Source of the DNA: a virus
Taxonomy: Duplodnaviria > Heunggongvirae > Uroviricota > Caudoviricetes
IMG/VR virus record: IMGVR_UViG_3300042549_004104
Coordinates: 263,353-327,352 of that record
DNA length: 64,000 nucleotides
Direction: 5' to 3' (one strand)
The notes under the pieces are model-generated. The model saw only the letters and a list, made by a program, of their open reading frames with translations, had not been told where the DNA came from and ran no database searches. This document shows positions 37,185 to 63,159 of the stretch, piece after piece. Position 1 is the first letter of the stretch. Every line of letters starts with the position of its first letter. The position numbers and the translations under genes are program-made.

Positions 37185-38387
37185 ATGTCCGAAGAAAATA
37201 AACCAATAAATTATTGTAGCTTTTGCAACAACCACAAAGATGCTGTTAAAAAACTAGTAGTCGGTGGTTCTGTTGCTATATGTAGTGATTGCGTTGAATT
37301 ATGCCAAGAACTCATAACTGATGGAGTTGTTGAACCTACAACAAAAGAATCCAATCCAGATTACGATCCAGAGTCCATAAAAGAATACCTAGATCAACAT
37401 GTCATTGGACAAGATGATGCTAAAAAGGTTCTCAGCGTAGCCATTGCTAATCACTATAAACGGATAAATAATCCTCCTAAAGATTTAGAAATACAAAAAG
37501 GCAATGTACTTATTGTAGGTCCGACAGGTAGTGGCAAAACCTTACTTGCAAAGACTGCGGCTAAATATCTTAAAGTGCCCTTCGTTGTAGCTGATGCAAC
37601 TAGTTTAACCGAAGCAGGTTATGTAGGTGATGATGTTGAATCAATGATTAACATGTTGCTCAATGCGGCTAACGGTGATAAAGACTTAGCCGAGCGTGGT
37701 ATCGTATTTGTTGATGAAATTGACAAAATTGCCCGAAAGAGTGAGAGTGTTAGTATAACACGTGATGTATCAGGTGAGGGAGTACAACAAGCATTACTCA
37801 AATTAGTTGAAGGTACAGTATGTCGCATAGCAGGAAGCGGTGGCAGAAAACATCCTGGTGCCGACATGCTTGAAATAAACACAAAAAACATATTATTCAT
37901 TGCAGGCGGGGCTTTTGTTGGATTGAAGGAAGTAATAGGAAATAGATTAAATGGAACAAGTATCGGGTTTCAAGCGGCTATCAAAGATAATAAAAAAGAG
38001 GGTGAACTAAGCAAAGTTACCCCTGATGATTTAACAAAGTACGGAATGATTCCAGAATTCATAGGTAGATTTACTACTACAGTTAGTATTGATGAATTAG
38101 ATAAAGAACAGTTGATTCATATCTTAACCGATGTTAAAAATAATTATATCAGCCAATACAAATATTTGCTTAAATTAGATAATATCGAACTTACATTTAC
38201 CCAAGATGCATTGGAACAAATGGCAGAAAATTCATTAACTCTGAAAACAGGGGCTCGTGGATTGCATACAGAAATTGAGCGAGTATTAATGCCGCATATG
38301 TTCCTCACCAAATCATACCGTCAAAATAACATAAAATTGCTAAATATTAACAAGGAGCAGATTTTAAATCCAAAATCTTTGTTATGA
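37185..38387 (+). CDS. clpX: ClpX AAA+ unfoldase
   Basis: N-terminal C4 zinc-binding domain (CSFCNN...CSDCVELC). Walker A GPTGSGKT. GYVG pore-1 loop. Walker B IVFVDEIDKI. IGF ClpP-docking loop (SIGFQAA). Confidence 0.93.
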   Translation: MSEENKPINYCSFCNNHKDAVKKLVVGGSVAICSDCVELCQELITDGVVEPTTKESNPDYDPESIKEYLDQHVIGQDDAKKVLSVAIANHYKRINNPPKDLEIQKGNVLIVGPTGSGKTLLAKTAAKYLKVPFVVADATSLTEAGYVGDDVESMINMLLNAANGDKDLAERGIVFVDEIDKIARKSESVSITRDVSGEGVQQALLKLVEGTVCRIAGSGGRKHPGADMLEINTKNILFIAGGAFVGLKEVIGNRLNGTSIGFQAAIKDNKKEGELSKVTPDDLTKYGMIPEFIGRFTTTVSIDELDKEQLIHILTDVKNNYISQYKYLLKLDNIELTFTQDALEQMAENSLTLKTGARGLHTEIERVLMPHMFLTKSYRQNNIKLLNINKEQILNPKSLL

Positions 38388-38596
38388 GTAAGAAAATTCC
38401 AGTATTTGACAACAATGTAGAGAAAGCATTACGTAAACTTAAAAAAAAGTTAACCGAATCCGGTTTACTACAAGAGGTCAGAGAACGTCAGGAATTTGTC
38501 AAACCAACCATAAAAAAGAAGATTGCCAAAAGTCAAGCAAAAAGACGTTGGAAGAAACACTTGCGTGACCAACAATTGCCCCCTAAAATGTACTAA
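38384..38596 (+). CDS. rpsU: ribosomal protein bS21
   Basis: 70 aa, basic. FDNNVEKALRKLKKKLTESGLLQEVRERQEFVKPTIKKKIAKSQAKRRW aligns with E. coli S21 ([44 protein letters not shown]). ATGA-coupled to clpX. Confidence 0.85.
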   Translation: MSKKIPVFDNNVEKALRKLKKKLTESGLLQEVRERQEFVKPTIKKKIAKSQAKRRWKKHLRDQQLPPKMY

Positions 38597-42169: not shown

Positions 42170-42468
42170 GACGCTTTTGGTTTAGCTTTAGTGACTTTAG
42201 CTTTTACAGCCTTAGCCCCATCAACTGCATCTTTCAAATTAACCTTGCCATCTTGATTAACATCCAGTGCTTTTTTGGCACGGGCAGTAGTCTTTTTAGC
42301 AACTTCTTTGACTGCGGTTACTTCGGCCTTAACTTCAGCAATAACCTCTTTAGCAACTTCCTCAACCTTAGCAACTTCTTGTTGCACAGCTGGGTTTTTG
42401 CTTCCGTATTGATTGTATAACACATAACCAATCACTATAATAATAGCAATAATGATAATAACTTCCAT
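42166..42468 (-). CDS. membrane-anchored Lys/Ala-rich helical protein
   Basis: N-terminal TM (VIIIIAIIIVIGYVLY) followed by EVAKEV-type repeats and a KAKVTKAKPK tail. Confidence 0.5.
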   Translation of the reverse strand: MEVIIIIAIIIVIGYVLYNQYGSKNPAVQQEVAKVEEVAKEVIAEVKAEVTAVKEVAKKTTARAKKALDVNQDGKVNLKDAVDGAKAVKAKVTKAKPKAS

Positions 42469-42536
42469 AGTAAATCTCCTTCAATTAATATTTATGATCC
42501 GTAGTCCCAAAGAAGATTTTTTTCATAAATACATAT

Positions 42537-43028
42537 ATGAACCTATCTAATTATTCACTCATAGATATGATGGATCTTCCCTTGCCCCCGATCCATGTTC
42601 AGAAAAAATTAGCATATAGGCCAACTGCAAAAGACGTAAAACATGTTTATAAACAACTAAACGAGTACGTATTCGAAAATCAATTAGTAATACCGTCAAT
42701 ACACCTAGTACCTAGATGTAGAAAATACTGGGGTATGTGTATGGGTGAAATAGAAATTTATAAGACCGGAAGCTATTGTGAGATTAAACTTATGGATAAA
42801 TGGTTTTGCCCTCAATGGTTTGTGACCACATTAGCGCATGAAATGGTTCACCAATATCAATGGGACATATTAGGCCCCGAACGTGAAAAGAACGGAAAAG
42901 ATTGGTTAATGAGTCACGGACCATCTTTCTTTCGATTTCGTGAAAATTTAGAACAGTATGGAATAAGTCTCAAAACTGCACATAGTCAAAGACGCTGGTT
43001 TAAACATCAAAATCTGTTCAGGGCATAA
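42537..43028 (+). CDS. HExxH zinc metallopeptidase-like protein (SprT-like)
   Basis: HEMVHQYQWD motif with size and placement typical of SprT/WLM-like proteins. Confidence 0.45.
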   Translation: MNLSNYSLIDMMDLPLPPIHVQKKLAYRPTAKDVKHVYKQLNEYVFENQLVIPSIHLVPRCRKYWGMCMGEIEIYKTGSYCEIKLMDKWFCPQWFVTTLAHEMVHQYQWDILGPEREKNGKDWLMSHGPSFFRFRENLEQYGISLKTAHSQRRWFKHQNLFRA

Positions 43029-43037
43029 ATACGTATT

Positions 43038-44567: not shown

Positions 44568-44572
44568 CCATA

Positions 44573-44620
44573 ATGCTTGACCTAATAAGAAATTACATAT
44601 ATAATGTAGTTTTATAATAA
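44573..44620 (+). promoter_or_regulatory. candidate sigma70-like promoter upstream of clpP (cTTGACCtaataagaaattacataTATAAT)
   Basis: Read from the sequence; -35 TTGACC, 17-nt spacer, TATAAT. Confidence 0.5.
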
Positions 44621-44632
44621 GGAAAGTATAGT

Positions 44633-45220
44633 ATGAGTTTAGTCCCAATCGTTATCGAACAAACAAGCAAAGGTGAGCGTAGTTATGATATCTACAGCCG
44701 CTTATTGCGTGACCGTGTAATTTTGCTTGAGGGCGAAGTACATGACCAAATGGCAAATCTTATCGTTGCCCAATTACTATTTTTAGAATCAGAAGGTGAT
44801 AAAGATATTTCAATGTATATCAATAGTCCTGGTGGTAGTGTAACTGCTGGCATGGCAATCTATGATGCAATGCAATTTGTCAAACCAGAGATTCACACAA
44901 TCGTTATGGGTCAAGCATGTAGTATGGGTAGTTTGCTTGCACAAGCAGGCTCATCTGGCAAACGTTTTATGTTGCCAAATGCACGGCACATGATTCATCA
45001 GCCTTCAGGTGGCGCACGTGGACAAGCAACTGATATGCTGATTCAGGTCAATGAAATTCTTGAAATGAAAAAGAACCTCACAGAAATCTATGTTAAGCAT
45101 AATTCAAAAGGTAAAACTTTTGACGTACTTCATGCTGATATGGAACGAGATAATTTTATGAGTAGCCAACAAGCACTTGATTATGGTCTTGTAGACGAAA
45201 TAGTTACAAAACGCGGTTGA
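44633..45220 (+). CDS. clpP: ClpP serine protease
   Basis: Nearly collinear with E. coli ClpP: [48 protein letters not shown] (catalytic Ser), HQP (His). Confidence 0.96.
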
Positions 45221-52697: not shown

Positions 52698-53450
52698 TTA
52701 GAAAGGAACTACACTACTTGTAGCAGTAACTGAGCCTGAAGTTGTTAGGGTTAAACTATTAGTAGAACCATCAGCCGTTACAGTACCTGTTGTGAAGGCT
52801 AATAATTTTACAGTGCTACTACTGACTGTCCCTGTTACACCAGCCCCAGTTGATCCCGGGCTAGAAATTGTCAATGTAGCAGTACTAGGAGTAAAGGTTC
52901 CTGTATATAATGCAGTGCCGCTTAAGATTCGCATATTACTTATATACCCATTTACATGGAAACTACCACCACCTGCGTAATTGCCTATATGCATAGATGA
53001 TGTCACTGGCGAAGCCTGCCACCCAGTAGTTGTTCCGCTTAAGCCTTGTGCTACACCATTTCTATAAATTGATAGTGTGCCACTATTGATTACACATGCA
53101 ACATGATACCATGTATCTGCACTCAATGTTGAAGTAGTCTGACAAGTAAGGCCGCTACCAACCGGAGTAAATCCTGGGCCAACACCTATTGCATTATTAC
53201 TTAATATTGATATAAATTGAAACGGGTTACCTGTATTACCATAACTCAATATTGAATAGATTTTAGCATGTGCGCCAGGAAGTATTCTAATCCAAAACTC
53301 AATCGTAGATGTTGAAGTCAATGCCAGCGCCGAATTACTAGTAACGGATATACTTCCGGTTAGGGAAGTAAAATCAGCAGAAAAAGAAGTAGGAACAACT
53401 GGCACTACCGCGCTCAATCCTCCACCAAATGTTATTCCACTAAATTCCAT
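52698..53450 (-). CDS. Ser/Thr/Gly-rich protein with a LamG/concanavalin-A-like lectin domain
   Basis: LSADTWYHVACVINSGTLSIYRNGV is a LamG-like signature. An S/T/G-rich beta region follows. Confidence 0.5.
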   Translation of the reverse strand: MEFSGITFGGGLSAVVPVVPTSFSADFTSLTGSISVTSNSALALTSTSTIEFWIRILPGAHAKIYSILSYGNTGNPFQFISILSNNAIGVGPGFTPVGSGLTCQTTSTLSADTWYHVACVINSGTLSIYRNGVAQGLSGTTTGWQASPVTSSMHIGNYAGGGSFHVNGYISNMRILSGTALYTGTFTPSTATLTISSPGSTGAGVTGTVSSSTVKLLAFTTGTVTADGSTNSLTLTTSGSVTATSSVVPF

Positions 53451-53453
53451 ATT

Positions 53454-53609
53454 TTATTTATCAACTTTTGATTTGTTATTTTTTGTTTTATCAGGACCCT
53501 TAGTTTTTGCCTCTTCCATCATTTTATTAGATGATGGACTGGCACGACGGGGTGTCGCATGATGTTTTTCGGGTTCATTTTTTCTTGGACTACGATTAAA
53601 CCAACTCAT
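53454..53609 (-). CDS. small basic protein (51 aa)
   Basis: AGGAGA SD. Below the ORF-track size cut-off. Confidence 0.35.
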   Translation of the reverse strand: MSWFNRSPRKNEPEKHHATPRRASPSSNKMMEEAKTKGPDKTKNNKSKVDK

Positions 53610-53610
53610 A

Positions 53611-53850
53611 TTATTCTCCTTGTTTTTCTTTTTGTTTTATTCCATATTGAACTTGTCGTTGTTTTTCTATAACCATTCTCATACATTGAGTTCTACGTTC
53701 ATAACTTTTAATTTTATCACAAAATGATGCACTACCACTGTAAGTTGCCATACAATAATTCTTTTCGTTTGGATCGGTTAATTTTACACAATCATTCATG
53801 TCAGCATATGCTGATATTGAAAATAAAAATAAAAATACAAAATTTTGCAT
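53611..53850 (-). CDS. secreted Cys-containing small protein
   Basis: Signal peptide. Cysteines at conserved spacing. Confidence 0.45.
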   Translation of the reverse strand: MQNFVFLFLFSISAYADMNDCVKLTDPNEKNYCMATYSGSASFCDKIKSYERRTQCMRMVIEKQRQVQYGIKQKEKQGE

Positions 53851-53875
53851 ATAAAAAAACCCCTTACGGGGTTGG

Positions 53876-54091
53876 TTATTGTTGTTGTTTTTCTAAATAC
53901 TCATTTATGCGTTGCTCTGCTTCTTCCTTAGATACAGCATAAATTTTAAATCTGCCCTTACTACCATTAATGTTAGCGTCAAATGGCATGACACCATTTA
54001 ATTGAAACCCTTCAGGTATATCTACGTTGACAATATATTCTCTCATATTTTTCATCCTATGTATTACTTGATTAATCGTTTCTGATGCCAT
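53876..54091 (-). CDS. hypothetical protein
   Basis: GGAGTAAAA SD. Confidence 0.45.
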   Translation of the reverse strand: MASETINQVIHRMKNMREYIVNVDIPEGFQLNGVMPFDANINGSKGRFKIYAVSKEEAEQRINEYLEKQQQ

Positions 54092-54143
54092 TTTTACTCC
54101 AATATGTTAAGATTATTCTCATATATTTATTCTAAATATTTAT

Positions 54144-54290
54144 ATGGAAAAAGAATCATTATCGGATCAATTAAGAACTTACCTTGAAGGTGTAGAAAGC
54201 TATTGGCTTACATTTATGGTAATTATGATAACTCTTAGTATTATTGCTGGGTTAACATTGTTTGGTGTATACCTTTATACCCGTCGTTAA
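54144..54290 (+). CDS. possible 48-aa single-TM peptide on the + strand inside the minus-strand island
   Basis: ATG..TAA ORF with a hydrophobic C-terminus (WLTFMVIMITLSIIAGLTLFGVYLY). The ribosome-binding site is weak. Confidence 0.25.
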   Translation: MEKESLSDQLRTYLEGVESYWLTFMVIMITLSIIAGLTLFGVYLYTRR

Positions 54291-54622
54291 TGCTTTAGAG
54301 GATGATTTTCTAACCATTTTTGTAAGCCTTCTGCACTTATTTTTCCGTCAAAATATTTTTTAAACCCTTTGTAAAAACGTATCTTTTCAGGGTCACCGTG
54401 AAAACTACGAAAGATTTCTTCTTCCTCTAATTGTTTTGCTATTATTATTTGGTAGCATTCAATATATGCATAGTATGTAAATAAACCAAAACAAGAAATA
54501 AACAACATTATACAAAGTATAGCTAACAAGTAATCACGCAATAATATTAATATTGCAGGAACTATAAACATGCTAAAAATTGAACCTAATAATATTAGCA
54601 ATGTTTTAGTTACTGGATTCAT
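54287..54622 (-). CDS. membrane protein (2-3 TM)
   Basis: Hydrophobic N-terminal two-thirds. Confidence 0.45.
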   Translation of the reverse strand: MNPVTKTLLILLGSIFSMFIVPAILILLRDYLLAILCIMLFISCFGLFTYYAYIECYQIIIAKQLEEEEIFRSFHGDPEKIRFYKGFKKYFDGKISAEGLQKWLENHPLKH

Positions 54623-55445
54623 TTTCTTTTTTCTTTCTTTCTTTTTCTGCTAAAAATTCTTCATAATCTTTTAATTTCTTTTGTCTCTCAAACCATTCTT
54701 GTTTACGCATTTCTGCTAGGCGAGTTTGATATGGCTTATCTTTTATAATGCTTCCCCATCTTTTTTGAGCATCATGTGCCACCCAAGCCATCATACCACT
54801 AAGTGCAAGAATTACTAAAAGACAGCCAACACCAATCGCAAATTCAAATTGATATCTAGCCATTCTTTCTTTACGTCTTTTAAGTCTAATAGCCTCTTGT
54901 TGCATTTGTTTGGTAATCAAATCCTTTTGCTGTTTGCCTAACTCTTTGGTCATTGCTTCAACTTCAGTGAATAATGCCCCAAGTTCAGGTGGACTTTGAT
55001 ATATCATTAACTCACGCAATTCTTTACCCATTTGCTCAAGTTGTTTCATCATCAATATACGTTGTAATGCACGTTTGGCTAAACTAGCATCTCCGGTATA
55101 TACTTCTGTTTTACTACGCTTTTCTTCTTCCTCTAATACTGCTAAACATTTGAAATAGCTGTCATAGTACTGTCCAAGATAATCTCCTATTTCTTGGTAT
55201 ATATTGCTGGTTTCCTGACTGCGTTTGTTTAAGTCTTTAACACGGGTTTTTTCTTCTGCAAGTTGTTTGGCTGCAGCCTCGGGAACAGGCTTGCCGTCAT
55301 ATTTTTTATGAAACTGGTCGTCAAGGTCCTTGATTACAGCTTTGATATCACCTGTGGCTGATTTGATGTCCTTGTATAGTTGACATCCTTTTTTTACAGC
55401 TTGTACGGCTCCGTTTGCTAGTGCAAACAGTGTAAATGGATCCAT
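54606..55445 (-). CDS. coiled-coil protein with a C-terminal TM anchor
   Basis: Long heptad-like charged region. TM segment FAIGVGCLLVILALSGMMAWV. Confidence 0.5.
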   Translation of the reverse strand: MDPFTLFALANGAVQAVKKGCQLYKDIKSATGDIKAVIKDLDDQFHKKYDGKPVPEAAAKQLAEEKTRVKDLNKRSQETSNIYQEIGDYLGQYYDSYFKCLAVLEEEEKRSKTEVYTGDASLAKRALQRILMMKQLEQMGKELRELMIYQSPPELGALFTEVEAMTKELGKQQKDLITKQMQQEAIRLKRRKERMARYQFEFAIGVGCLLVILALSGMMAWVAHDAQKRWGSIIKDKPYQTRLAEMRKQEWFERQKKLKDYEEFLAEKERKKKENESSN

Positions 55446-55455
55446 TGTTATTATA

Positions 55456-55500
55456 CCTCACGCTCCTACGCTGGGAGCTATCTAGTATTTAATGGATTTG
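55456..55500. repeat. intergenic conserved hairpin element, copy 1 (gctcc-tacgctg-ggagc ... agtatttaatggat)
   Basis: Read directly in the sequence; pairs with copy 2. Confidence 0.55.
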
Positions 55501-55563
55501 AAAATTTAATTTGGTTTTGAGTAAAAAGTAACCACCTACAATTAACGTATTAAACAGTTTTAA

Positions 55564-55605
55564 CTCATGCCCCTACGCTGGGGCTTGAGTATTTAACGGA
55601 TCTTG
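55564..55605. repeat. intergenic conserved hairpin element, copy 2 (gcccc-tacgctg-gggc ... agtatttaacggat)
   Basis: Same loop and flanking sequence as copy 1, with compensatory stem changes. Confidence 0.55.
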
Positions 55606-55639
55606 ACGCTAGATTAACAAGTGGTTAATTAGAACGGTA

Positions 55640-56338
55640 TTACGCTGTGAACGATATAGTTTTTACAAATCCATCTAGAGGATTCTCTGGAGTAGGAGTA
55701 AGTGATGTATAAGTTGCTTCATACCAGTCTTGCCCCGAATTGTAGGTAAAAGCAGAAGTCAATGTTAATTCATAACTAGTAGTATAATATACAATATCTA
55801 TTACTGTGCTAGTAGGCAACGCCAGTATAGTTGCAGTACTTGTGATCCAATTATTTGAATTGATTATCAGCTTGTTCGATCCAATCTGTGTTATTATCAC
55901 ACCCCCTGAATTATAATTAGCCCCACCACTTGTGTAAGATATCGGAGAACCTGATGTGAACGAGATAGTAGTTACGAATCCATCTAGAGGATTCTCTGGA
56001 GTAGGAGTAAGTGATGTATAAGTTGCTTCATACCAGTCTTGCTCCGAATTGTAGGTAAAAGCAGAAGTCAGTGTTAATTCATAATTAGTACTTCCAAAAT
56101 ATACAACATCTATTACTGTGCTAGAAGGCAACGCTAGTATAGTTGCAGTACTTGTGGTCCAAGCACCTGGATTGATTATCAGCTTGTTCCCTCCAATCTG
56201 TGTTATTATCACACCTCCTGAATTATAATTAGTCCCCTGACTTGTGTAAGATGTTGTCCCACCGCCCCCGCCTGCCGGTGCGTCTGCTTGAATGCCTGCT
56301 CCAATTGTAATTCCTGACCCTATTGTTATAACTCCCAT
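55640..56338 (-). CDS. beta-rich protein made of two tandem copies of a ~100-aa domain
   Basis: Nucleotide blocks ~55664-55965 and ~55966-56275 are about 85-90% identical. Protein repeats read GANYNSGGVIITQIG.NKLIIN...STATILALP.STVID.VY....YELTLTSAFTYNS.QDWYEATYTSLTPTPENPLDGFV.TISFT. Confidence 0.55.
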   Translation of the reverse strand: MGVITIGSGITIGAGIQADAPAGGGGGTTSYTSQGTNYNSGGVIITQIGGNKLIINPGAWTTSTATILALPSSTVIDVVYFGSTNYELTLTSAFTYNSEQDWYEATYTSLTPTPENPLDGFVTTISFTSGSPISYTSGGANYNSGGVIITQIGSNKLIINSNNWITSTATILALPTSTVIDIVYYTTSYELTLTSAFTYNSGQDWYEATYTSLTPTPENPLDGFVKTISFTA

Positions 56339-56369
56339 AATTTATCCCTTTATATAAAATTTTCTACTA

Positions 56370-56915
56370 TTAAAACCAAAGCCACAATGCTTGGCTCATT
56401 AATACGATTGCTACACCACCTACATACAAACTTGCTGTATATAATCTATTGTTAACTGCTAAAATACTGGCTGAAAGTAAAACAATAGCAATTTGAAATA
56501 AGCTACCTGCAAATGTATACCAAGGGCTACGAGTTTTCGCTACTGCACGTTCATCTTCTAGTTTACGTGCTTTAGCCATTAATTCTTTCTTACCTTCACC
56601 TGAATCAGGATCACTTTCATAACGGTCAATTTTAGCTTGTAATCTTGCAACTTTTTCTTTGTCACCTTTGGCCGCGGCATCATCACGTGCCATTTCTGCT
56701 AGTGTACCCTTGATACTTTTAGCTTGATAAAAGCTCCAGGTGTTGTTAGCGTCAATAGTATTGTTCAATACTTTGCTACTGTTGCTACCACCCATGTAAG
56801 TGTTGATAGCAAGTAATGCCGCAAATACGACAATTACCCATCCTGCTTTATCTTTAATTAATGCCTCACGCTCTGAACGAGATAAGGGCTTTGTTTCTGG
56901 TTTAGCTTCTACCAT
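56370..56915 (-). CDS. membrane protein (N-terminal TM plus two C-terminal TMs) with a charged central helix
   Basis: Hydropathy pattern read from the translation. Confidence 0.5.
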   Translation of the reverse strand: MVEAKPETKPLSRSEREALIKDKAGWVIVVFAALLAINTYMGGSNSSKVLNNTIDANNTWSFYQAKSIKGTLAEMARDDAAAKGDKEKVARLQAKIDRYESDPDSGEGKKELMAKARKLEDERAVAKTRSPWYTFAGSLFQIAIVLLSASILAVNNRLYTASLYVGGVAIVLMSQALWLWF

Positions 56916-56955
56916 GATACATTCCTTTTAGTTATATTAGTATTTATGAAAATTT

Positions 56956-57543
56956 ATGGTAATGTCCCTGGAGTTGATAAATATATGCATGAAAATCAAA
57001 GATTTAGCAGATAATCAGATGCCTCATCTGTATTTAGACATGGATGGAGTGCAGGCAGACTTATTTCATAGAGTAGCAGAACTAGAGAATGTTCCCCACT
57101 GGGACGATATTGCAGACCAGAATGAAGCGATTACACGATTAAGTCTTAAAGGCCCCGAAAGTGTTTATGAATTGTTTCGTAATCTGAAACCATTACCCGG
57201 TGGGCAAATTATCATTAAATGGTTACATGATAATAGTATCCCATTCACTGTATTAAGTGCCCCGTTACGTAATGAGCAGGAAGCTAGTAAGCAAGGTAAA
57301 CGTGATTGGTTAGACCAATATAATCCCGGAACTAGTCAGGATGCCATCTTTACTAAAAGTAAGTTTAAATATGCTACTATTAACGGTAGACCAAACGTAT
57401 TAGTAGATGATTTCAACTATTATTTAAACAGTTGGGCAGACGCCGGTGGCATTGCAGTTAAACACAGTGATGCGAGCACTGACCACACTATTAAACAACT
57501 AAAGAAAATATACGAACCCTATCTTGGGCAAATTGATACTTGA
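56956..57543 (+). CDS. HAD-superfamily 5'(3')-deoxyribonucleotidase-like protein
   Basis: LYLDMDGV motif I (DxDG) near the N-terminus. About 190 aa. An alternative start lies at 56989. Confidence 0.6.
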   Translation: MVMSLELINICMKIKDLADNQMPHLYLDMDGVQADLFHRVAELENVPHWDDIADQNEAITRLSLKGPESVYELFRNLKPLPGGQIIIKWLHDNSIPFTVLSAPLRNEQEASKQGKRDWLDQYNPGTSQDAIFTKSKFKYATINGRPNVLVDDFNYYLNSWADAGGIAVKHSDASTDHTIKQLKKIYEPYLGQIDT

Positions 57544-57566
57544 AAAAATAACTAATTTATATTATA

Positions 57567-57749
57567 ATGAAAAAACATAATTCAAGCTATACATCATATG
57601 AAGTTATCACACAACAAGATGGTAATGAAGATTTGTTAATACCAATACCTCCCGATCTATTGAAAGCATTGGATTGGAAAGATGGAGATAATGTAGAAAT
57701 AAATCTTGATGATAAGGGGAATTTTGTTTTTAAGAAAGCAAATAAATGA
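57567..57749 (+). CDS. small AbrB/MazE-fold-like protein
   Basis: LLIPIPPDLLKALDWKDGDNVEINLDDKGNFVFKK resembles the swapped-hairpin SpoVT/AbrB domain. Confidence 0.4.
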   Translation: MKKHNSSYTSYEVITQQDGNEDLLIPIPPDLLKALDWKDGDNVEINLDDKGNFVFKKANK

Positions 57750-58129
57750 GTTACGTTTACACTACTACCGGAACTACAGGCGCTGTATACACTACCCCGA
57801 ATACAGGTACTGGTATTAATTGGAATGGTACTGTGTCTAGTGGTGGTACTTACACCATTGCAACTGATCCCAATCTTAAAGGTAATACATTGCACGTTAA
57901 GGGCAATGCTGAGTTTGAGGGTGATGTTACTTTTGAGGGTGATATTGCTATTAAAGGTAAGTCAATCAAAGAGTCACTATTATCTATTGAAGAACGATTA
58001 GCTATATTACGCCCAAATGAAAACCTAGAAAAGAAATGGGATAACTTGCGAGAACTACGCAAGCAATACATGGAACTTGAAGCCGAAATCATAGAGAAAG
58101 AAAAGATGTGGGATATACTGAAAAAGTAG
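57746..58129 (+). CDS. hypothetical protein (T/G-rich N-terminus, coiled-coil C-terminus)
   Basis: ATGA-coupled ORF. Confidence 0.45.
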   Translation: MSYVYTTTGTTGAVYTTPNTGTGINWNGTVSSGGTYTIATDPNLKGNTLHVKGNAEFEGDVTFEGDIAIKGKSIKESLLSIEERLAILRPNENLEKKWDNLRELRKQYMELEAEIIEKEKMWDILKK

Positions 58130-58132
58130 TAC

Positions 58133-58161
58133 TTGACAGATATTCCGTTTTCGTCTATAAT
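58133..58161 (+). promoter_or_regulatory. sigma70-type promoter (TTGACA-17-TATAAT)
   Basis: cTTGACAgatattccgttttcgtcTATAATatg. Confidence 0.6.
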
Positions 58162-58193
58162 ATGTACATGTTTAACACTATGACCTACGTATT

Positions 58194-58583
58194 ATGACTA
58201 TGCATCTTGAAGGCCCTTGGCTCAGTCTCGGCGGCAAACGCAAAGGTAAAGTTAAGTTTCGCAATGCTGAGGAAGCTAAACGTGCCCGTGAACTAGAACA
58301 ATCATGGAAAGAATTGTGTAAACGTCAGGGCGTTGAGGCAGAAGAAAAGAAACGTATTAAGGCACTCAAAGCTCCTACACTACAATATTCATTGTCTGCA
58401 CCTCCAGGTCGTGAGACACAAAAAATCAAAAGTTTAACTACACCCGGCGGTTCTACTGCTCCAGTACATAAAGTGTACACTGGTGACAAAATCATTGGTA
58501 TCGCTACCATGCATAAAAGTAATGCTGTGCCTGTGTTTAGCGATGAGCAAGCAGTAGAAATTTCAAGGATGCGCCGTGGCTAA
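58194..58583 (+). CDS. hypothetical basic protein
   Basis: ORF downstream of the promoter. Confidence 0.45.
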   Translation: MTMHLEGPWLSLGGKRKGKVKFRNAEEAKRARELEQSWKELCKRQGVEAEEKKRIKALKAPTLQYSLSAPPGRETQKIKSLTTPGGSTAPVHKVYTGDKIIGIATMHKSNAVPVFSDEQAVEISRMRRG

Positions 58584-58878
58584 AATTAATCGTTGCACTT
58601 ATTATTTTGAACTGCTGAAAAACCGTAGTGATGGTATCAATTCTTGGAAAGCCGGTGCATACTCAGCCGCAGGTTATATGGGTGCATGGTACGGCGGGCA
58701 AGGTAGATTGTCTATGAACAGTGATAGAATATGGTGTCAAGGTCCTAAAGGTGGTGTTAAGATTGTAAAAGATAGAATAACCTATCCAGGAGGCATGTAT
58801 GGATATGTTACACACAATGAAAAAGCAATGAAGGAATTCATGTGGATCAAGTTAAAAGCAAAGGAGTTGCGATTTTAA
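58576..58878 (+). CDS. hypothetical protein
   Basis: Coupled ORF. Confidence 0.45.
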   Translation: MAKINRCTYYFELLKNRSDGINSWKAGAYSAAGYMGAWYGGQGRLSMNSDRIWCQGPKGGVKIVKDRITYPGGMYGYVTHNEKAMKEFMWIKLKAKELRF

Positions 58879-59094
58879 ATGGCAAAAGAAGAGGGCATTA
58901 AGATGGACGGCAAGGTAATAGATGTATTACCAAATGCCGTTTTTAAAGTACAAATGGAAGCTGGACCTACAATAACAGGATACATCAGCGGCCGCATGCG
59001 TAAGCATGATATTAAAATATTATTGGGTGACACTGTAGAAGTAGAATTTAGTCCATATGACCTAACCAAAGGTCGCATTACTCGCCGCAGATAA
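58879..59094 (+). CDS. infA: translation initiation factor IF-1
   Basis: 71 aa. Collinear with E. coli IF1: [67 protein letters not shown] versus [67 protein letters not shown]. Confidence 0.92.
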
Positions 59095-59119
59095 TAAATA
59101 CTATTCAAGGAGGTGGGCT

Positions 59120-59278
59120 ATGAAACAAAGTAAATTAGTTACTGAGTTATATAAGGCTTGCTTCGACCACGATGCGGAAAAGATTGCAAAACTACGTAAA
59201 AAAGAATTTTGCAAGATTGCTAAACACCGAGCCGAAGGTAAGCCATTTAACACTAAGTGGGTTTTGGTAAGGATATAG
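59120..59278 (+). CDS. small protein (52 aa)
   Basis: Very strong AAGGAGGTGGG SD. Below the ORF-track size cut-off. Confidence 0.4.
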   Translation: MKQSKLVTELYKACFDHDAEKIAKLRKKEFCKIAKHRAEGKPFNTKWVLVRI

Positions 59279-59322
59279 TATTGTAACAATACTGTCACAG
59301 ATAGGGCGATAAATATTAGCTT

Positions 59323-60207
59323 ATGCTAAAGACTTATCGCTCTATTTTCATTAGTGACGTACATTTAGGTACAAAAGATTGTCAAGCAGGGAAGTTAAAC
59401 AACTTCCTCAAGCACAATTCGTGCGATACCCTGTATCTTGTAGGTGATATAATTGATGCATGGAAAATACAACAAAACAAATGGCGTTGGAAACAATCGC
59501 ACACTAATGTAGTACGCAGAGTATTAGGTCATGCCAAGCGTGGCACTAAAGTAATATTCATTGCAGGCAATCACGATGAATTCTTAAGACCAATGATACC
59601 ATATGGTTTCAGTTTTGGTCTAATAGAAATACATAATCAAATAGAACATATAGGTGCTGATGGTAAACACTATCTAGTTGTACACGGTGACTTGTTCGAT
59701 GGCATTACAAGATTAGCGCCCTGGTTATCATTTTTAGGAGATAAAGCATATGATTTCATACTTAGCCTCAACAATAAATTTAATTGGATTCGTCGCCGCA
59801 TGGGTTTTGGGTACTTTAGCCTTAGCAAGTATCTTAAGCACCGAGTCAAAAAAGCAGTAGATTTTATTTTTAAGTTTGAAGAAAACTTAGCCAAATATTG
59901 TAAGAAACGTGGCTTTGATGGAGTCATATGTGGACACATACATCATGCAGAGATAAAAGAAATAGATGGTGTAGTATACATGAACGACGGTGATTGGGTA
60001 GAGAGTTGCACGGCATTAGTAGAACATCACGACGGACGTTGGGAAATAGTTACTTGGACTAAGGAGAGTGACAATGTGGATAATGATATTGATAGCAGTA
60101 CACACGACCAATCCACAGGATCAACCAGGAAGAATAGAACTCTTGTTCAACGACCAAAAGAGTTGCGAACAAGTATTGTCAACAATGAAGTACGAATTAA
60201 AATTTAA
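59323..60207 (+). CDS. calcineurin-like metallophosphoesterase, LpxH-like
   Basis: IFISDVHLG ... LYLVGDIIDAW ... GNHDEF ... GHIHH. The N-terminal block resembles the LpxH ADLHL...LYILGDLFEAW block. Confidence 0.65.
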   Translation: MLKTYRSIFISDVHLGTKDCQAGKLNNFLKHNSCDTLYLVGDIIDAWKIQQNKWRWKQSHTNVVRRVLGHAKRGTKVIFIAGNHDEFLRPMIPYGFSFGLIEIHNQIEHIGADGKHYLVVHGDLFDGITRLAPWLSFLGDKAYDFILSLNNKFNWIRRRMGFGYFSLSKYLKHRVKKAVDFIFKFEENLAKYCKKRGFDGVICGHIHHAEIKEIDGVVYMNDGDWVESCTALVEHHDGRWEIVTWTKESDNVDNDIDSSTHDQSTGSTRKNRTLVQRPKELRTSIVNNEVRIKI

Positions 60208-60228
60208 AACTTTTAAGGTAATAGGCGA

Positions 60229-60948
60229 ATGCAAAAAACAATATTAAGCGAAAAAATTACAATCGTAGTACCTTGCAAGAATGAGCAAGACTATATTCCA
60301 CATCTGTTATTGCATTTGCGACGCCAAATGCTAGGAAGCACCAGGATCATCATTGCAGATTGTTCTACAGACAACACACGAAAAGTTATAGAAGCAATGA
60401 AGGGCCGATTGAATGTAGAAGTCATTGATGGTGGTCCTGTCAGCATTGCTAAGAACCGTGGCGCCGCGTTGGTTACTACACCCTATATTCTATTCATTGA
60501 TGCTGATGTACGTTTCTTCAATGACATGGTTATCCGCGATGCAGTTGATGAAATGGAATCAAAGAACTTGGATCTATTAGGCTTAAACATCAAATGCTAT
60601 GATAGTGACAAACGTGCTACTATTGGGTTTGCTGTGTTCAACGGCATTAACCGAATCCTAAAGCACTTTAGTCCATTTGCAGTCGGTGCATTTATGCTAA
60701 CACGCAGAGACAGATTTGAAGAATTTGGGGGGTTTCCTGAAAAGTTTGCAACCTCAGAGGACTATTTCTTATCCAGAAAATACAGTCCTAAAAAGTTTAG
60801 AATTGTCAAACATTATTTTGGTCAAGATAGTCGTAGATTCAAAAAGATGGGGTATTTTGGGATGGCTACATATCTTGTTAAGAACTTTGTTAACCGCAAT
60901 AATAAGAAATACTGGGATAGTTTAGATTCATCTAAGTATTGGAGCTAA
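60229..60948 (+). CDS. family-2 (GT-A) glycosyltransferase
   Basis: ITIVVPCKNEQDYI N-terminus and FIDADV DxD motif. Confidence 0.65.
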   Translation: MQKTILSEKITIVVPCKNEQDYIPHLLLHLRRQMLGSTRIIIADCSTDNTRKVIEAMKGRLNVEVIDGGPVSIAKNRGAALVTTPYILFIDADVRFFNDMVIRDAVDEMESKNLDLLGLNIKCYDSDKRATIGFAVFNGINRILKHFSPFAVGAFMLTRRDRFEEFGGFPEKFATSEDYFLSRKYSPKKFRIVKHYFGQDSRRFKKMGYFGMATYLVKNFVNRNNKKYWDSLDSSKYWS

Positions 60949-60973
60949 TGTAAATTGCGATAAATACTCTACT

Positions 60974-61525
60974 ATGTACGATATTGTAGAGAAAATCAAC
61001 GAATCCCGAACAAAAAAAATAGAGATAGTTAATCTGTCCTACGATCTTTCCGACCTCAATCCAGTACTTAGCAAGAAAACACTAGACTATCACTATGGTG
61101 ATTTAGCCCATGGATACACTACCCGATACAACAAGGGTGAAGGCGACAAAGATTTCAACTATGCAGGCGCTTTTCTGCACAACATTTACTTTCCACAGTT
61201 TCGCAAGATACAAGAAGATAACACTCCTAATGGTCCTGTACTAGGAATCATCAAGCGCAAATACGATTGGTGGAGAGACTTTAAAGAACAATTCAAAATA
61301 GAAGCCATGAAGATACAGGGCAGTGGTTGGATTTATATGAGTTATGACGGTGAGATAAAGACTATTGCTAACCACGAGGTTCGTGATGATATTCTTATTC
61401 TTGTAGACTGGTGGGAACATGCCTGGGCCTTAGACTACCAAGCAGATAAAAAAAGTTACCTAGAAAACACTTGGAAGATAATGAACTGGAGCCACATTAA
61501 CACTAGGTGGGGGAAGAATTTATGA
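60974..61525 (+). CDS. sod: Fe/Mn superoxide dismutase family protein
   Basis: DYHYGDLAHGYTTRYN aligns with EYHYGKHHQTYVTNLN. AGAFLHNIYF aligns with NHTFYW. QGSGWIYM aligns with FGSGWTWL. LILVDWWEHAWALDYQADKKSYLENTWKIMNW aligns with [32 protein letters not shown]. The metal ligands H, H, D and H are all present. Confidence 0.85.
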   Translation: MYDIVEKINESRTKKIEIVNLSYDLSDLNPVLSKKTLDYHYGDLAHGYTTRYNKGEGDKDFNYAGAFLHNIYFPQFRKIQEDNTPNGPVLGIIKRKYDWWRDFKEQFKIEAMKIQGSGWIYMSYDGEIKTIANHEVRDDILILVDWWEHAWALDYQADKKSYLENTWKIMNWSHINTRWGKNL

Positions 61526-63159
61526 GAGCAAGAGAATTTATTGTAGAGGACAATGAAAGTCGTACGGAAGAGTTCCATGGCGTTCATATGAAACTAAGAG
61601 ATGACGGTTATGAAGTAGTTGCATCAGCACTTGATGATTGGGGTCGTGAAATGGGGTCAGTCGTCTTTAATAAAGGTGACGGTAATGAATTAGACCCTCA
61701 AGATTTGTTAGTAATAGACAAATACAGAGGTCAAGGCATAGCCAAAGTAATGTATGACTATGTAAAAAGCAAAGGGTATGAGATACATAAAAGTTATGAT
61801 GTGACAAAGATAGCTGACCAGGGAAAAGAATCGGGTGAGTATTTTTGGCAAAAGAATCGCGGAGAAGAACGTATTTGGGAAAGTGCTGACGATGAAACAA
61901 AAGAACTTGTAACAAATGCAATATTAGATTTCTATCAGAACGTAGGTGATATTGAAAAACAACCAGTTGACAATTATGTTAGCACAGCAAAAGAGATACT
62001 AGGACAAGTTGATGATCCTACATTAAAGTCAAAACTGTTAGACATTTTTAGACAAGCAAAACAAAACCCATATGTACAAGGTGGAGTTGTTACGACAATT
62101 GGTGCATTGCTTGCAGGTGGTGTATTAAGTTCGGCACAGAAAATGGGATTAAGTCCATCACAAACTAACTTAGTATTACAAGCAATATTGAATACTGTAA
62201 TTCCTACTGTAGTGTCCAGGATCAATGGAAAAAGTTGGAGTGACACAATCAAATATACACTAGCAAGCGCAGGCATTGGTACTGGCATTGCTGGTATGAT
62301 GGAAGAAGATGCATTAGATGAAGATTGGAAATCTGCACTAGCAACAGGTGCTATGGCAGGTGCTATGGCTATGGGCGCTAATGCAAAGGCTCCTGAAATG
62401 GTTTATCAAACAGTTGAGCCCGGCGATACAGTTTATAGCATAGCAAGACAAAATAATGTAAATCCACTAGAGATATTCAAACTCAACAAGATGGATCGTA
62501 ATACTAAATTAGAAATAGGACAAAAAGTTCTAGTACCGGATTATTCAAAACCTGTTAAATATGCACAACCAATTGCACAACCAACGACTTCATTTAAAGA
62601 TAAACTCACATCAATGATACCAAAGTTTTCACGTGATAAAGAAGAGGAAGAAGGCGTTACATTACTGAGTGACAATGGCGATGCTGAAGCCGTATTACAA
62701 ACTGCTGCCAAAAATGCCGGACTCAAGGGTGCAGAACTAGCACAGTTCATGGCTCAGACCAGACATGAAAGCTGGGATTTTGGTCAGATGAAAGAAGTAG
62801 GAAATAAAAAAAGATTTGCCAAATATGAAACTCCCCGTAAGGCAAAACAATTAGGTAATAAAATAAAAGGCGACGGAGAAAGATTTAAAGGTCGTGGATT
62901 TATTCAGTTGACCGGACGAGATAACTACACCAGAGCAAGTCAACAAATATTTGGTGATGATAGATTAGTTAAAAATCCTGACTTGGCTAGTAGACCAGAT
63001 ATAGGTGCTCAAATTGCATTATGGTTCTGGGAAAATCGAGTTAGACCCAATGTTAACAATTTTAACAATACAAAAGAAGTAACTAATGCAATCAATCCAG
63101 GACTTAGTGGACTACAAGATAGACATAATAAATTTAAAGAATATTTGGCAGTACTATGA
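61522..63159 (+). CDS. multidomain lysin: N-terminal GNAT-like region, hydrophobic G/A-rich segments, LysM domain, C-terminal GH19-type (chitinase-like) peptidoglycan hydrolase domain
   Basis: LysM: YQTVEPGDTVYSIARQNNVNPLEIFKLN...GQKVLVP. GH19-like catalytic block: AQTRHESWDFGQMKE...FKGRGFIQLTGRDNY...IGAQIALWFW. Start taken at MRAREFI, overlapping the upstream TGA. Confidence 0.75.
   Translation: MRAREFIVEDNESRTEEFHGVHMKLRDDGYEVVASALDDWGREMGSVVFNKGDGNELDPQDLLVIDKYRGQGIAKVMYDYVKSKGYEIHKSYDVTKIADQGKESGEYFWQKNRGEERIWESADDETKELVTNAILDFYQNVGDIEKQPVDNYVSTAKEILGQVDDPTLKSKLLDIFRQAKQNPYVQGGVVTTIGALLAGGVLSSAQKMGLSPSQTNLVLQAILNTVIPTVVSRINGKSWSDTIKYTLASAGIGTGIAGMMEEDALDEDWKSALATGAMAGAMAMGANAKAPEMVYQTVEPGDTVYSIARQNNVNPLEIFKLNKMDRNTKLEIGQKVLVPDYSKPVKYAQPIAQPTTSFKDKLTSMIPKFSRDKEEEEGVTLLSDNGDAEAVLQTAAKNAGLKGAELAQFMAQTRHESWDFGQMKEVGNKKRFAKYETPRKAKQLGNKIKGDGERFKGRGFIQLTGRDNYTRASQQIFGDDRLVKNPDLASRPDIGAQIALWFWENRVRPNVNNFNNTKEVTNAINPGLSGLQDRHNKFKEYLAVL

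What the first reader, a model, noticed from the sequence alone, without database searches (positions are those of the whole stretch)
58879..59094. Phage-encoded translation initiation factor IF-1 (infA homolog)
The 71-aa ORF is collinear and more than 50% identical by eye with E. coli IF1 across the entire OB fold. IF1 is essential and is rarely found in phage genomes. Together with bS21, this suggests translational takeover or compensation for host shutoff.
Basis: partly seen in the sequence, partly recalled or inferred. Interest (0 to 1): 0.65.

Follow-up and report, generated by a model that had tools for sequence, protein, structure and literature searches.

The report
Jumbo-phage copy of initiation factor IF-1
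A giant uncultured bacteriophage carries its own well-conserved copy of bacterial translation initiation factor IF-1; the gene is real and old in this phage lineage, but IF-1 genes in huge phages have been reported since 2020, so this adds a member to a known kind.

Summary
ORF 58879-59094 (+, 71 aa) is a full-length IF-1: Pfam PF01176 scores 77.6 bits, the NCBIfam infA equivalog scores 102 bits against a cutoff of 61, solved IF-1 structures match at E=1e-22, and it is 55% identical to E. coli IF1. The window is part of a 359-kb metagenomic contig with phage gene content. bS21 is also present, at 38384-38596.

The gene is not a recent host insertion. It has no flanking repeats and its GC3 matches its neighbours. 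The best cellular IF-1 found is 60-67% identical, whereas hundreds of phage-contig relatives are 65-99% identical. The gene sits in a conserved block (NT5C-orf60-orf127-orf129-IF1-SOD) and is under strong purifying selection (median dN/dS 0.07).

It lies downstream of a perfect sigma-70 consensus promoter that is conserved in 53 of 66 related loci, apparently in one operon with an unknown protein, orf129. The residues that contact the ribosome are kept.

The most likely function is a working IF-1, made from a host-type promoter, that binds the host 30S A site to sustain or bias initiation during infection. This function has not been tested.

IF1 in huge phages is already published (Al-Shayeb 2020; Lak and Jug phages). 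I rate it a new member of a known kind, of moderate to low interest.

The parts
58879..59094 (+). infA homologue: a 71-aa IF-1 with a single S1-like OB domain.
   Evidence: PF01176 77.6 bits. TIGR00008 102.4 bits. PDB IF-1 chains match at E=1e-22. phrog_30201 matches at 6e-28. dN/dS against relatives is 0.03-0.17.
58861..58866 (+). Shine-Dalgarno-like AAGGAG, 12 nt upstream of the IF-1 ATG. The stop codon of the upstream ORF (TAA, 58876-58878) abuts the ATG.
   Evidence: Read directly from the sequence. That the stop-start junction allows translational coupling is inference.
58133..58161 (+). Perfect sigma-70 consensus promoter (TTGACA-17 nt-TATAAT, 12/12), about 32 nt upstream of the orf129 start. 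It is the likely promoter of an orf129-orf100-IF1 transcription unit.
   Evidence: No terminator-like site lies between it and IF-1 on the + strand. A promoter matching at least 11/12 sits at the equivalent place in 53 of 66 distinct related loci. The window holds 18 such sites on the + strand and 5 on the - strand, against 4.3 for both strands together in shuffles.
58194..58583 (+). orf129: a conserved phage protein of unknown function (phrog_27048), encoded upstream of IF-1, directly in most relatives and with orf100 between them in this window.
   Evidence: It lies within about 1 kb upstream of IF-1 in 70 of the 89 IF-1 loci and is present somewhere in 82 of them. Of 76 evaluable loci found through orf129, 57 carry an IF-1 within 3 kb downstream. 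It has no Pfam or NCBIfam match. phrog_27048 matches at 2.6e-29. Homologues occur in Delftia phage PhiW-14 and Acidovorax phage ACP17.
58576..58878 (+). orf100: a small ORF between orf129 and IF-1. It overlaps the end of orf129 by 8 nt and is present in only some relatives.
   Evidence: 25 of 89 loci. No family match.
38384..38596 (+). Phage-encoded ribosomal protein bS21, the second translation gene in the window. It sits between ClpX and DnaK.
   Evidence: PF01165 58.4 bits. phrog_21469 at 1.1e-12. Coordinates.

Best explanation
This is a functional IF-1 gene that a lineage of uncultured jumbo phages has inherited vertically for a long time. The window comes from a 359-kb contig of this lineage. 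The protein most likely does what bacterial IF-1 does. It binds the A site of the host 30S subunit, between h44, the 530 loop and uS12. There it works with host IF2 and IF3 to speed up and proof-read formation of the 30S initiation complex. It appears to be transcribed by unmodified host RNA polymerase from a perfect sigma-70 consensus promoter, as the last gene of a short operon, orf129-(orf100)-infA. That arrangement suggests expression from early in infection. The likely benefit is to keep the initiation-factor supply high, or to shift it toward phage mRNAs, while the host's own gene expression is being taken over. The phage's own bS21 and a chaperone/protease set (ClpX, ClpP, ClpS, DnaK, Hsp20) would act alongside it. 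Shown here: the homology, the phage context, conservation under selection, the conserved gene order and the conserved promoter motif. Inferred: ribosome binding, timing of expression, and the benefit to the phage.
For: Family membership is at equivalog level and covers the full length. The residues reported to contact h44, the 530 loop and uS12 in the T. thermophilus 30S-IF1 structure are identical or conservatively swapped between Arg and Lys across the clade. These are Pro18, Arg23, Gly38, Lys39, Arg41, Arg46, Tyr60, Asp61, Arg64 and Arg66, as listed in bioRxiv 10.1101/2023.10.27.564398 and PMC10913371. In the clade the corresponding pattern is P18, R/K23, G38, R/K39, R41, K46, Y60, D61, K64 and R66. 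Purifying selection is strong. dN/dS against the window gene is 0.03-0.17, and the median over 196 pairs is 0.07. Synonymous sites are near saturation while the proteins stay 65-99% identical. IF-1 is the best-conserved gene of its syntenic block. In L089, for example, IF-1 is 69% identical while its neighbours are 50-58%. The phage context rests on several results. The PHROG matches are to an endolysin, an ATP-dependent DNA ligase, a homing endonuclease, an exonuclease and QueE/FolE. The 64 kb contain no tRNA and no Rfam match. 96 of 119 ORFs are on one strand. IMG/VR holds 235 relatives, on contigs up to 524 kb. orf129 has homologues in isolated myophages. The promoter is a 12/12 consensus and is conserved in 53 of 66 loci. 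The same reading is given for IF1 and S21 of huge phages in PMC7162821.
Against: No experiment on any phage IF-1 was found in the literature searched. The host is not identified, so the phage protein cannot be compared with the host's infA. The clade has fixed several changes at positions that are well conserved in most bacterial IF-1s: Tyr44 to Asp/Asn, Tyr/Phe69 to Arg, Ala34 to Gly, Thr49 to Leu and Leu57 to Phe. These could alter release kinetics or partner contacts. The promoter is only a consensus match, so early timing is inferred. The single-sequence AlphaFold model was poor (pLDDT 48.8), so the fold rests on sequence homology to solved structures.
Confidence: 0.7

Rival explanations
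1. It is a specialised or altered IF-1 that reprograms the ribosome rather than simply supplementing the host factor. It would still bind the 30S A site. The clade-specific surface changes (residue 44, residues 69-71, the RRR tail), possibly acting together with the co-transcribed orf129 and the phage bS21, would change dissociation or mRNA selection. The outcome would favour phage messages or disfavour host ones.
For: Position 44 is Asp or Asn in 84 of 95 distinct IF-1s from viral loci and is never Tyr or Phe. It is Tyr or Phe in 135 of 142 cluster representatives. Position 69 is Arg in 87 of 95 viral sequences, against Tyr or Phe in 129 of 142 representatives. In a docking study, Tyr44 and Arg70 are among the IF1 residues next to bound tigecycline, a drug that blocks IF1 release (PMC8273347). 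That places these positions on the face of IF1 toward the 30S head. The linkage to orf129 is conserved and orf129 has no known function.
Against: A non-aromatic residue 44 also occurs in some bacterial lineages. Ser, Asn, Met, Lys, Arg or Leu is seen in 16 of 65 named MAG IF-1s, so the change is compatible with ordinary IF-1 function. orf129 also occurs without IF-1, in PhiW-14-like phages and in 19 of 76 loci, so it is not an obligate partner. There are no functional data.
Confidence: 0.17
2. It works mainly as a general RNA chaperone or antiterminator of the cold-shock-protein type and not on the ribosome. It would melt RNA structure in phage transcripts.
For: IF-1 has the S1/CSD-like OB fold. 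Many of the samples appear to be cold freshwater; I did not verify that.
Against: Residues used specifically for uS12, h44 and 530-loop contacts are invariant across the clade: P18, G38, R41, Y60, D61 and R66. A generic RNA binder would not need them. The score is at infA-equivalog level and no CSD or S1 family scores better.
Confidence: 0.06
3. It is a recently captured host gene (a passenger or moron), a piece of cellular DNA mis-assembled or mis-binned into a viral contig, or the contig is cellular.
For: IF-1 is a universal bacterial gene. Some 'phage' database records with IF-1 are clearly doubtful, for example 1.5-4 kb 'Listeria phage' contigs and 'Acinetobacter phage MD-2021a' contigs that carry dnaK and hscA. 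No capsid or terminase gene lies inside this 64-kb window.
Against: The same protein is found in the same neighbourhood on at least 20 independent contigs from different samples. Synteny is conserved over 89 loci whose other genes have diverged to 45-60% identity. There are no flanking direct or inverted repeats longer than chance 12-27-nt imperfect matches. GC3 is 0.33, within the 0.28-0.44 range of neighbouring genes. No species-representative genome that shared one of the six exact 8-residue patterns used for the scan has an IF-1 more than 64% identical, and no cluster representative exceeds 67%. The gene content of the window is phage-like.
Confidence: 0.03

Closest known systems
Bacterial translation initiation factor IF-1 (InfA; E. 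coli PDB 1AH9, T. thermophilus on the 30S in PDB 1HR0, P. aeruginosa 2N78)
   Same: Same length, collinear over residues 1-70 without gaps, and 55% identical to E. coli IF1. The residues that contact h44, the 530 loop and uS12 are conserved. It passes the infA equivalog model.
   Different: It is encoded in a phage, next to phage genes of unknown function rather than housekeeping genes. The clade has Asp/Asn44, Arg69, Gly34, Leu49, Phe57 and a C-terminal RRR in place of the usual bacterial residues. It is no closer than 60-67% to any cellular IF-1 found.
IF1 genes of huge and jumbo phages (Al-Shayeb et al. 2020, PMC7162821; Lak megaphages; uncultured phages LR756508/LR756511; Sinorhizobium phage Phosso; glacier-foreland huge phages, PMC11748809; Jug phages with 'IF-1A' as a core gene, PMC12880540)
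   Same: The same kind of gene in the same kind of genome (over 200 kb), often together with bS21 and other translation genes. The proposed role is the same: intercepting or redirecting host translation. As in Jug phages, the gene is conserved across a whole clade.
   Different: Only 44-57% identical to the IF-1s of those phages, so this is a separate lineage. It shows no DNA similarity to any deposited phage. The host type appears different: Shine-Dalgarno sites and TTGACA/TATAAT promoters point to a host with canonical sigma-70, not the Bacteroidota hosts of Lak, Jug and DAC phages (inference). The conserved orf129-IF1 operon with its consensus promoter was not mentioned in the papers I read.
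Phage-encoded ribosomal protein bS21 (Mizuno et al. 2019, as cited in PMC7162821)
   Same: A small host-derived component of the initiation machinery, carried by phages and thought to replace or compete with the host protein. One is present in this same window (38384-38596).
   Different: bS21 is a ribosomal subunit protein, whereas IF-1 is a transient factor. The two genes here are 20 kb apart and are not co-transcribed.

Membership tests
Translation initiation factor IF-1 (Pfam PF01176, NCBIfam TIGR00008 infA) | Scores above the curated cutoffs of the family profiles over the whole domain. | tested here: met
   PF01176 scores 77.6 bits against 30.2, covering model positions 1-64 of 64. TIGR00008 scores 102.4 bits against 61.15, covering model positions 1-68 of 69.
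Translation initiation factor IF-1 (Pfam PF01176, NCBIfam TIGR00008 infA) | A single-domain protein of about 70-72 aa with an S1-like five-stranded OB barrel and a short helix between strands 3 and 4. | tested here: inconclusive
   The length (71 aa) and the gapless full-length alignment to solved IF-1 structures at E=1e-22 support the fold. The single-sequence AlphaFold model placed beta strands at the expected positions but had low confidence (pLDDT 48.8).
Translation initiation factor IF-1 (Pfam PF01176, NCBIfam TIGR00008 infA) | Conservation of the 30S-contact residues: Pro18, Arg23, Gly38, Lys39, Arg41, Arg46, Tyr60, Asp61, Arg64 and Arg66. | tested here: met
   In 119 clade sequences, P18, G38, R41, Y60, D61 and R66 are invariant. 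Positions 23 and 39 are Arg or Lys, position 46 is Lys, and position 64 is Lys, as in E. coli. The contact list comes from bioRxiv 10.1101/2023.10.27.564398 and PMC10913371.
Translation initiation factor IF-1 (Pfam PF01176, NCBIfam TIGR00008 infA) | Binds the 30S A site and stimulates IF2/IF3-dependent initiation; complements loss of infA. | not testable with these tools
   Needs biochemistry or genetics. No published test of any phage IF-1 was found.
Translation genes of huge phages (IF1, IF3, bS21 and others; PMC7162821) | Encoded on a phage genome of more than 200 kb, not on cellular DNA. | tested here: met
   The source contig is 359,425 bp. The PHROG content is phage-like. 235 relatives are on IMG/VR contigs up to 524 kb. 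orf129 has homologues in isolated myophages. Caveat: no capsid or terminase gene lies within the 64-kb window or the 5 kb beyond it.
Translation genes of huge phages (IF1, IF3, bS21 and others; PMC7162821) | Related to but distinct from host versions, and maintained by selection in the phage lineage. | tested here: met
   The best cellular matches are 60-67% identical, against 65-99% within the phage clade. Median dN/dS is 0.07. The narrow clade forms a bacteria-free group holding at least 95% of its members in 52 of 100 NJ bootstrap replicates, which is only moderate support.
Recent host-derived insertion (moron or island) | Flanking att-like repeats, atypical composition, patchy presence among close relatives. 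| tested here: not met
   No meaningful flanking repeats. GC3 is 0.33, like the neighbours. The gene is present at the same position in all 89 loci retrieved through it and in 57 of 76 evaluable loci retrieved through the neighbouring gene.

The most novel reading that the evidence does not exclude
The phage IF-1 lineage is a functionally diverged initiation factor. It is marked by Asp/Asn44, Arg69 and an RRR tail, and it is co-transcribed from a consensus host-type promoter with the unknown basic protein orf129. Alone, or with orf129 and the phage bS21, it would change 30S A-site occupancy or release so that phage mRNAs are initiated preferentially. That would be a phage-encoded 'specialised initiation' module and not a spare part.
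Probability: 0.15. Interest if true: 0.7.

Novelty: new member of a known kind. Interest (0 to 1): 0.35.

Why it matters
No phage-encoded initiation factor has been tested experimentally in the literature I could search. This lineage would be a good test case. The protein is small and the family is very large and well sampled: thousands of metagenomic relatives, and at least 235 on viral contigs. It is clearly under selection. It has a few fixed differences from bacterial IF-1 that can be reverted one at a time, and a conserved upstream partner gene and promoter that suggest when it is made and with what. A demonstration that it supplements, replaces or out-competes host IF1 would put the 'phages redirect host translation' model for huge phages on an experimental footing. 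As a genome annotation it is ordinary, and public pipelines already call it IF-1.

Tried and rejected
- **DNA similarity to deposited phages.** Megablast of 56000-62000 found nothing, so no named relative could be used.
- **Structure of IF-1.** Single-sequence AlphaFold gave pLDDT 48.8. I did not use the model, and I spent the second job on orf129 instead.
- **Structure and function of orf129.** The model from a 33-sequence alignment reached only pLDDT 62.9 and pTM 0.25. A profile search of PDB gave one chance-level match at E=1.3. Foldseek against viral models returned only uncharacterised phage proteins. Function remains unknown.
- **Asp44-Arg69 salt bridge replacing an aromatic pair.** I weakened this idea. 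Several viral IF-1s combine Asn44 with Tyr69, and DAC19 combines Tyr44 with Arg69. No coordinates were available to measure the distance.
- **'Loss of Tyr44 is unique to phages'.** Rejected. 16 of 65 named bacterial MAG IF-1s also lack an aromatic residue or His at that position.
- **Monophyly of all orf129-linked phage IF-1s.** Not supported by NJ bootstrap on 71 columns (5-8 of 100 replicates). Only the narrow clade is moderately supported.
- **Host or donor identification.** The genome scan used exact 8-residue patterns, so it is biased. Its best hits were Arcobacteraceae at 60-64%. The 50%-identity cluster library merges phage and bacterial IF-1s and carries no names. I found no donor or host. 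A proteobacterial host, possibly Burkholderiales, is only an inference from DnaK similarity, the hosts of phages with orf129 homologues, and the Shine-Dalgarno and sigma-70 signals.
- **Exact-protein look-ups for two other window ORFs.** These failed, probably because my start codons differed from the called genes.
- **Hallmark structural genes.** PHROG scans of the large unannotated ORFs and of the 5 kb beyond the window found no capsid, portal or terminase gene.
- **Literature on this clade.** A search for this specific clade (IF-1 + bS21 + DnaK + freshwater) found nothing relevant.

Full report
**1. The observation**

It is a full-length IF-1 by every sequence test I could run.
- Pfam PF01176 scores 77.6 bits against a cutoff of 30.2 and covers the whole model.
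- The NCBIfam equivalog model for infA, TIGR00008, scores 102.4 bits against a cutoff of 61.15.
- A search of all PDB sequences returns only IF-1 chains, aligned end to end without gaps, with E-values from 1e-22 to 1e-18.
- Ungapped identity to E. coli IF1 is 39/71, or 55%.

It lies at 38384-38596 and matches PF01165 at 58.4 bits.

**2. What genome this is**

The exact protein is encoded on at least 20 public metagenomic contigs. The longest is a 359,425-bp JGI contig, 3300042868 Ga0453135_0000002, and the window corresponds to roughly 277.8-341.8 kb of it.

The 64 kb contain no tRNA and no Rfam family. 96 of 119 non-overlapping ORFs are on the + strand. Most large ORFs match nothing in Pfam or PHROGs.

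The ORFs that do match are typical of large virulent phages:
- ATP-dependent DNA ligase, 28282-29619;
- a NUMOD3 homing endonuclease, 16276-17640;
- an exonuclease and an endonuclease;
- a helicase;
- FolE, QueD-like and QueE-like genes;
- dCMP deaminase, MazG and a 5'-nucleotidase;
- a LysM + GH19 endolysin, 61507-63159.

There is no DNA-level match to any deposited phage. IMG/VR holds 235 stretches that encode close relatives of this IF-1, on contigs up to 524 kb. The neighbouring gene orf129 has homologues in the isolated myophages Delftia phage PhiW-14 and Acidovorax phage ACP17.

I conclude that the window is part of an uncultured jumbo phage. The caveat is that no capsid, portal or terminase gene lies in the window or in the 5 kb beyond it.

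**3. Recent host insertion or long-held phage gene**

Everything points to a long-held phage gene.
- *Repeats.* Nothing around the gene exceeds chance-level 12-27-nt imperfect matches.
- *Composition.* GC3 is 0.33, inside the 0.28-0.44 range of neighbouring genes.
- *Nearest relatives.* The 120 best matches in a 5.8-billion-protein collection are 79-99% identical, and many sit on contigs of 100-360 kb. The nearest cellular proteins are far less similar. In a library of 1.84 billion cluster representatives, no representative exceeds 67% identity. In a scan of 185,579 species-representative genomes the best hits are Arcobacteraceae at 60-64%. That scan is biased, because it only sees genomes that share an exact 8-residue pattern with the query.
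- *Synteny.* Across 89 loci retrieved through IF-1, the order NT5C-like nucleotidase, orf60 (AbrB/MazE-like), orf127, orf129, [orf100], IF-1, [orf52, LpxH-like, GT2], Fe/Mn SOD is conserved. The neighbours have diverged to 45-70% identity while IF-1 stays at 65-96%.
- *Selection.* dN/dS against the window gene is 0.03-0.17. The median over 196 informative pairs is 0.07. Synonymous sites are close to saturation.

A neighbour-joining analysis of the 71 aligned columns recovers the narrow clade (66 distinct sequences) as a bacteria-free group holding at least 95% of its members in 52 of 100 bootstrap replicates. That is as much resolution as so short a protein allows.

**4. Transcription context**

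A perfect sigma-70 consensus promoter, TTGACA-17 nt-TATAAT, lies at 58133-58161, about 32 nt upstream of the orf129 start codon. No terminator-like site separates it from IF-1.

The three genes are tightly packed. orf129 and orf100 overlap by 8 nt. The orf100 stop codon abuts the IF-1 ATG (TAAATG). An AAGGAG lies 12 nt upstream of the ATG.

The promoter is not an isolated chance match. The window holds 18 sites matching at least 11/12 on the + strand, ten of them perfect, and 5 on the - strand. Composition-preserving shuffles give 4.3 on both strands together. A site matching at least 11/12 occupies the equivalent position upstream of the orf129 homologue in 53 of 66 distinct related loci.

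I infer that orf129-(orf100)-infA is one transcription unit read by unmodified host RNA polymerase. In virulent phages that usually means early expression. The timing is inference, not observation.

**5. The protein compared with bacterial IF-1**

I used the contact list from the T. thermophilus 30S-IF1 structure as summarised in bioRxiv 10.1101/2023.10.27.564398 and PMC10913371. In 119 clade sequences:
- P18, G38, R41, Y60, D61 and R66 are invariant;
- positions 23 and 39 alternate between Arg and Lys;
- position 46 is Lys;
- position 64 is Lys, as in E. coli.

The ribosome-binding face is therefore intact.

The variable part is residues 25-33, the beta2-beta3 hairpin.

The clade-specific fixed differences are Val16, Gly34, Asp44, Lys46, Leu49, Glu54, Phe57, Arg69 and the C-terminal RRR. 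The most striking is position 44. It is Tyr or Phe in 135 of 142 cluster representatives. It is Asp or Asn in 84 of 95 distinct IF-1s from viral loci, and it is never Tyr or Phe there. This holds even for the divergent IF-1 variants (45-60% identical to the window's) that I found downstream of orf129 homologues. Sinorhizobium phage Phosso and uncultured phage LR756508 also have Asn44.

This is not a phage-only feature. 16 of 65 named bacterial MAG IF-1s have Ser, Asn, Met, Lys, Arg or Leu at position 44.

A docking study places Tyr44 and Arg70 among the IF1 residues adjacent to bound tigecycline, a drug that blocks IF1 release (PMC8273347). These positions therefore lie on the face of IF1 toward the 30S head. 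What the substitutions do is unknown.

**6. Most likely mechanism and rivals**

*Best explanation (about 0.7).* The protein is a working IF-1 that binds the host 30S A site and cooperates with host IF2 and IF3. It is made from a host-type promoter to sustain or bias initiation during infection. It would act alongside the phage's own bS21 and a notable proteostasis set:
- ClpX, 37185-38387;
- DnaK, 38704-40593;
- Hsp20, 40663-41106;
- ClpS, 41169-41477;
- ClpP, 44633-45220.

*Rivals.*
- A diverged, reprogramming IF-1, possibly working with orf129 (about 0.17).
- A Csp-like RNA chaperone (about 0.06). The invariance of the uS12 and h44 contact residues argues against it.
- Recent host cargo or an assembly artefact (about 0.03). 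The synteny, composition and identity data argue against it.

**7. Comparison with what is known**

IF1 and IF3, together with S21, S1 and other translation genes, were reported in huge phages in 2020 and interpreted as tools to intercept host translation (PMC7162821). The observation has been repeated for soil huge phages (PMC11748809). A translation initiation factor is annotated in a 390-kb Flavobacterium phage isolate (PMC13573597). 'Translation initiation factor 1A' is one of 39 core genes of the gut Jug phages (PMC12880540).

In the deposited-phage collection, tblastn finds IF-1 in Lak megaphages, Bacteroides DAC/SJC phages, two LR7565xx huge phages and Sinorhizobium phage Phosso, where it is annotated as IF-1. 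All are 44-57% identical to this one. PHROGs already has a family for it, phrog_30201. JGI annotates this very protein as IF-1.

What I did not find in the papers I read:
- this particular, very large lineage;
- its conserved orf129-IF-1 operon with a consensus promoter;
- the residue-44 signature.

**8. Verdict**

The finding is real and correctly identified. It is a new member of a known kind and is not a new phenomenon.

Interest is moderate to low (0.35). The most novel reading still open is a specialised initiation module of IF-1 plus orf129 plus bS21. I give it about 0.15.

Noticed in passing
window 58194-58583 (+): orf129 is a basic 129-aa protein of unknown function (phrog_27048) with about 8000 metagenomic homologues. 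It lies upstream of IF-1 in most related loci and behind a conserved consensus promoter. Its invariant C-terminal motif is YTG...GI..HKS...P.F......MRR. Homologues occur in Delftia phage PhiW-14 gp115 and Acidovorax phage ACP17, which lack IF-1. The structure model was too weak to interpret.
   Followed up: partly
window, + strand: 15778, 19492, 25706, 25998, 26439, 27425, 32746, 45499, 46388, 58133 (perfect sites), plus 8 sites at 11/12: The window has an unusually high density of perfect TTGACA-N16/17-TATAAT promoters, almost all on the coding strand and in front of genes. There are 23 sites matching at least 11/12, against 4.3 expected. Together with the AAGGAG ribosome-binding sites, this suggests heavy reliance on the host sigma-70 holoenzyme and a host with canonical promoters, not Bacteroidota.
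   Followed up: partly
window 37185-45220 (+): A proteostasis cluster has bS21 embedded in it: ClpX (37185-38387), bS21 (38384-38596, its start overlapping the ClpX stop), DnaK/Hsp70 (38704-40593, about 70% identical to gammaproteobacterial DnaK), Hsp20 (40663-41106), ClpS (41169-41477), a SprT-like protein (42537-43028) and ClpP (44633-45220). ClpX and bS21 are also adjacent in related loci L005 and L073.
   Followed up: partly
window 4994-9647 (+): This is a set of genes of the 7-deazaguanine/queuosine-precursor type: GTP cyclohydrolase I (4994-5725), a PTPS/QueD-like gene (7316-7879), a 2OG-Fe(II) oxygenase (8109-8621) and a QueE-like radical SAM gene (8805-9647). They may serve DNA or tRNA modification.
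   Followed up: no
window 16276-17640 (+): A 454-aa homing endonuclease with NUMOD3 motifs is wedged between a 137-aa ORF (15863-16276) and a 622-aa ResIII-type helicase that starts at a TTG overlapping its stop codon (17637). It could be a free-standing mobile endonuclease or part of an intron or intein arrangement. Rfam found no group I intron.
   Followed up: no
window 60974-61525 (+) and L001 15171-16181 (beyond the window end): An Fe/Mn superoxide dismutase lies just downstream of IF-1 in most relatives. In this phage it is followed, beyond the window, by a NifU-like gene and two IscA-like Fe-S assembly genes. The window also encodes a cytochrome c-like ORF (31112-31414) and a Band_7 protein (31610-32404).
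   Followed up: no
window 59120-60948 (+): orf52, an LpxH-like metallophosphoesterase (59323-60207) and a family-2 glycosyltransferase (60229-60948) lie between IF-1 and SOD only in the closest relatives. In most loci SOD follows IF-1 within about 230-1000 nt, so these three genes look like a later insertion into the conserved block.
   Followed up: partly
L036 and L065 (both from IMGVR_UViG_3300027749_002876, 524,565 bp): One 524-kb IMG/VR contig carries two different IF-1 copies, 85% and 78% identical to the window protein, each with its own syntenic block about 360 kb apart. It may be a chimeric or concatenated assembly of two related phages and not one genome.
   Followed up: no
window 52698-56338 (-): A short minus-strand block inside the otherwise plus-strand region encodes a Laminin_G_3/concanavalin-like protein (52698-53450). 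It matches parts of virion structural and baseplate PHROGs. The block also encodes a 232-aa Gly/Thr-rich protein with an internal duplication (55640-56338). Both are possible fibre or adhesin genes and they vary between relatives.
   Followed up: no
phage collection records OR84xxxx and CAKLQ*: Several deposited 'phage' records that hit IF-1 and DnaK look like bacterial DNA. Examples are 1.5-7 kb 'Listeria phage' contigs and 'Acinetobacter phage MD-2021a' contigs carrying dnaK and hscA. Counts of 'phages with IF-1' taken from that collection are therefore inflated.
   Followed up: no
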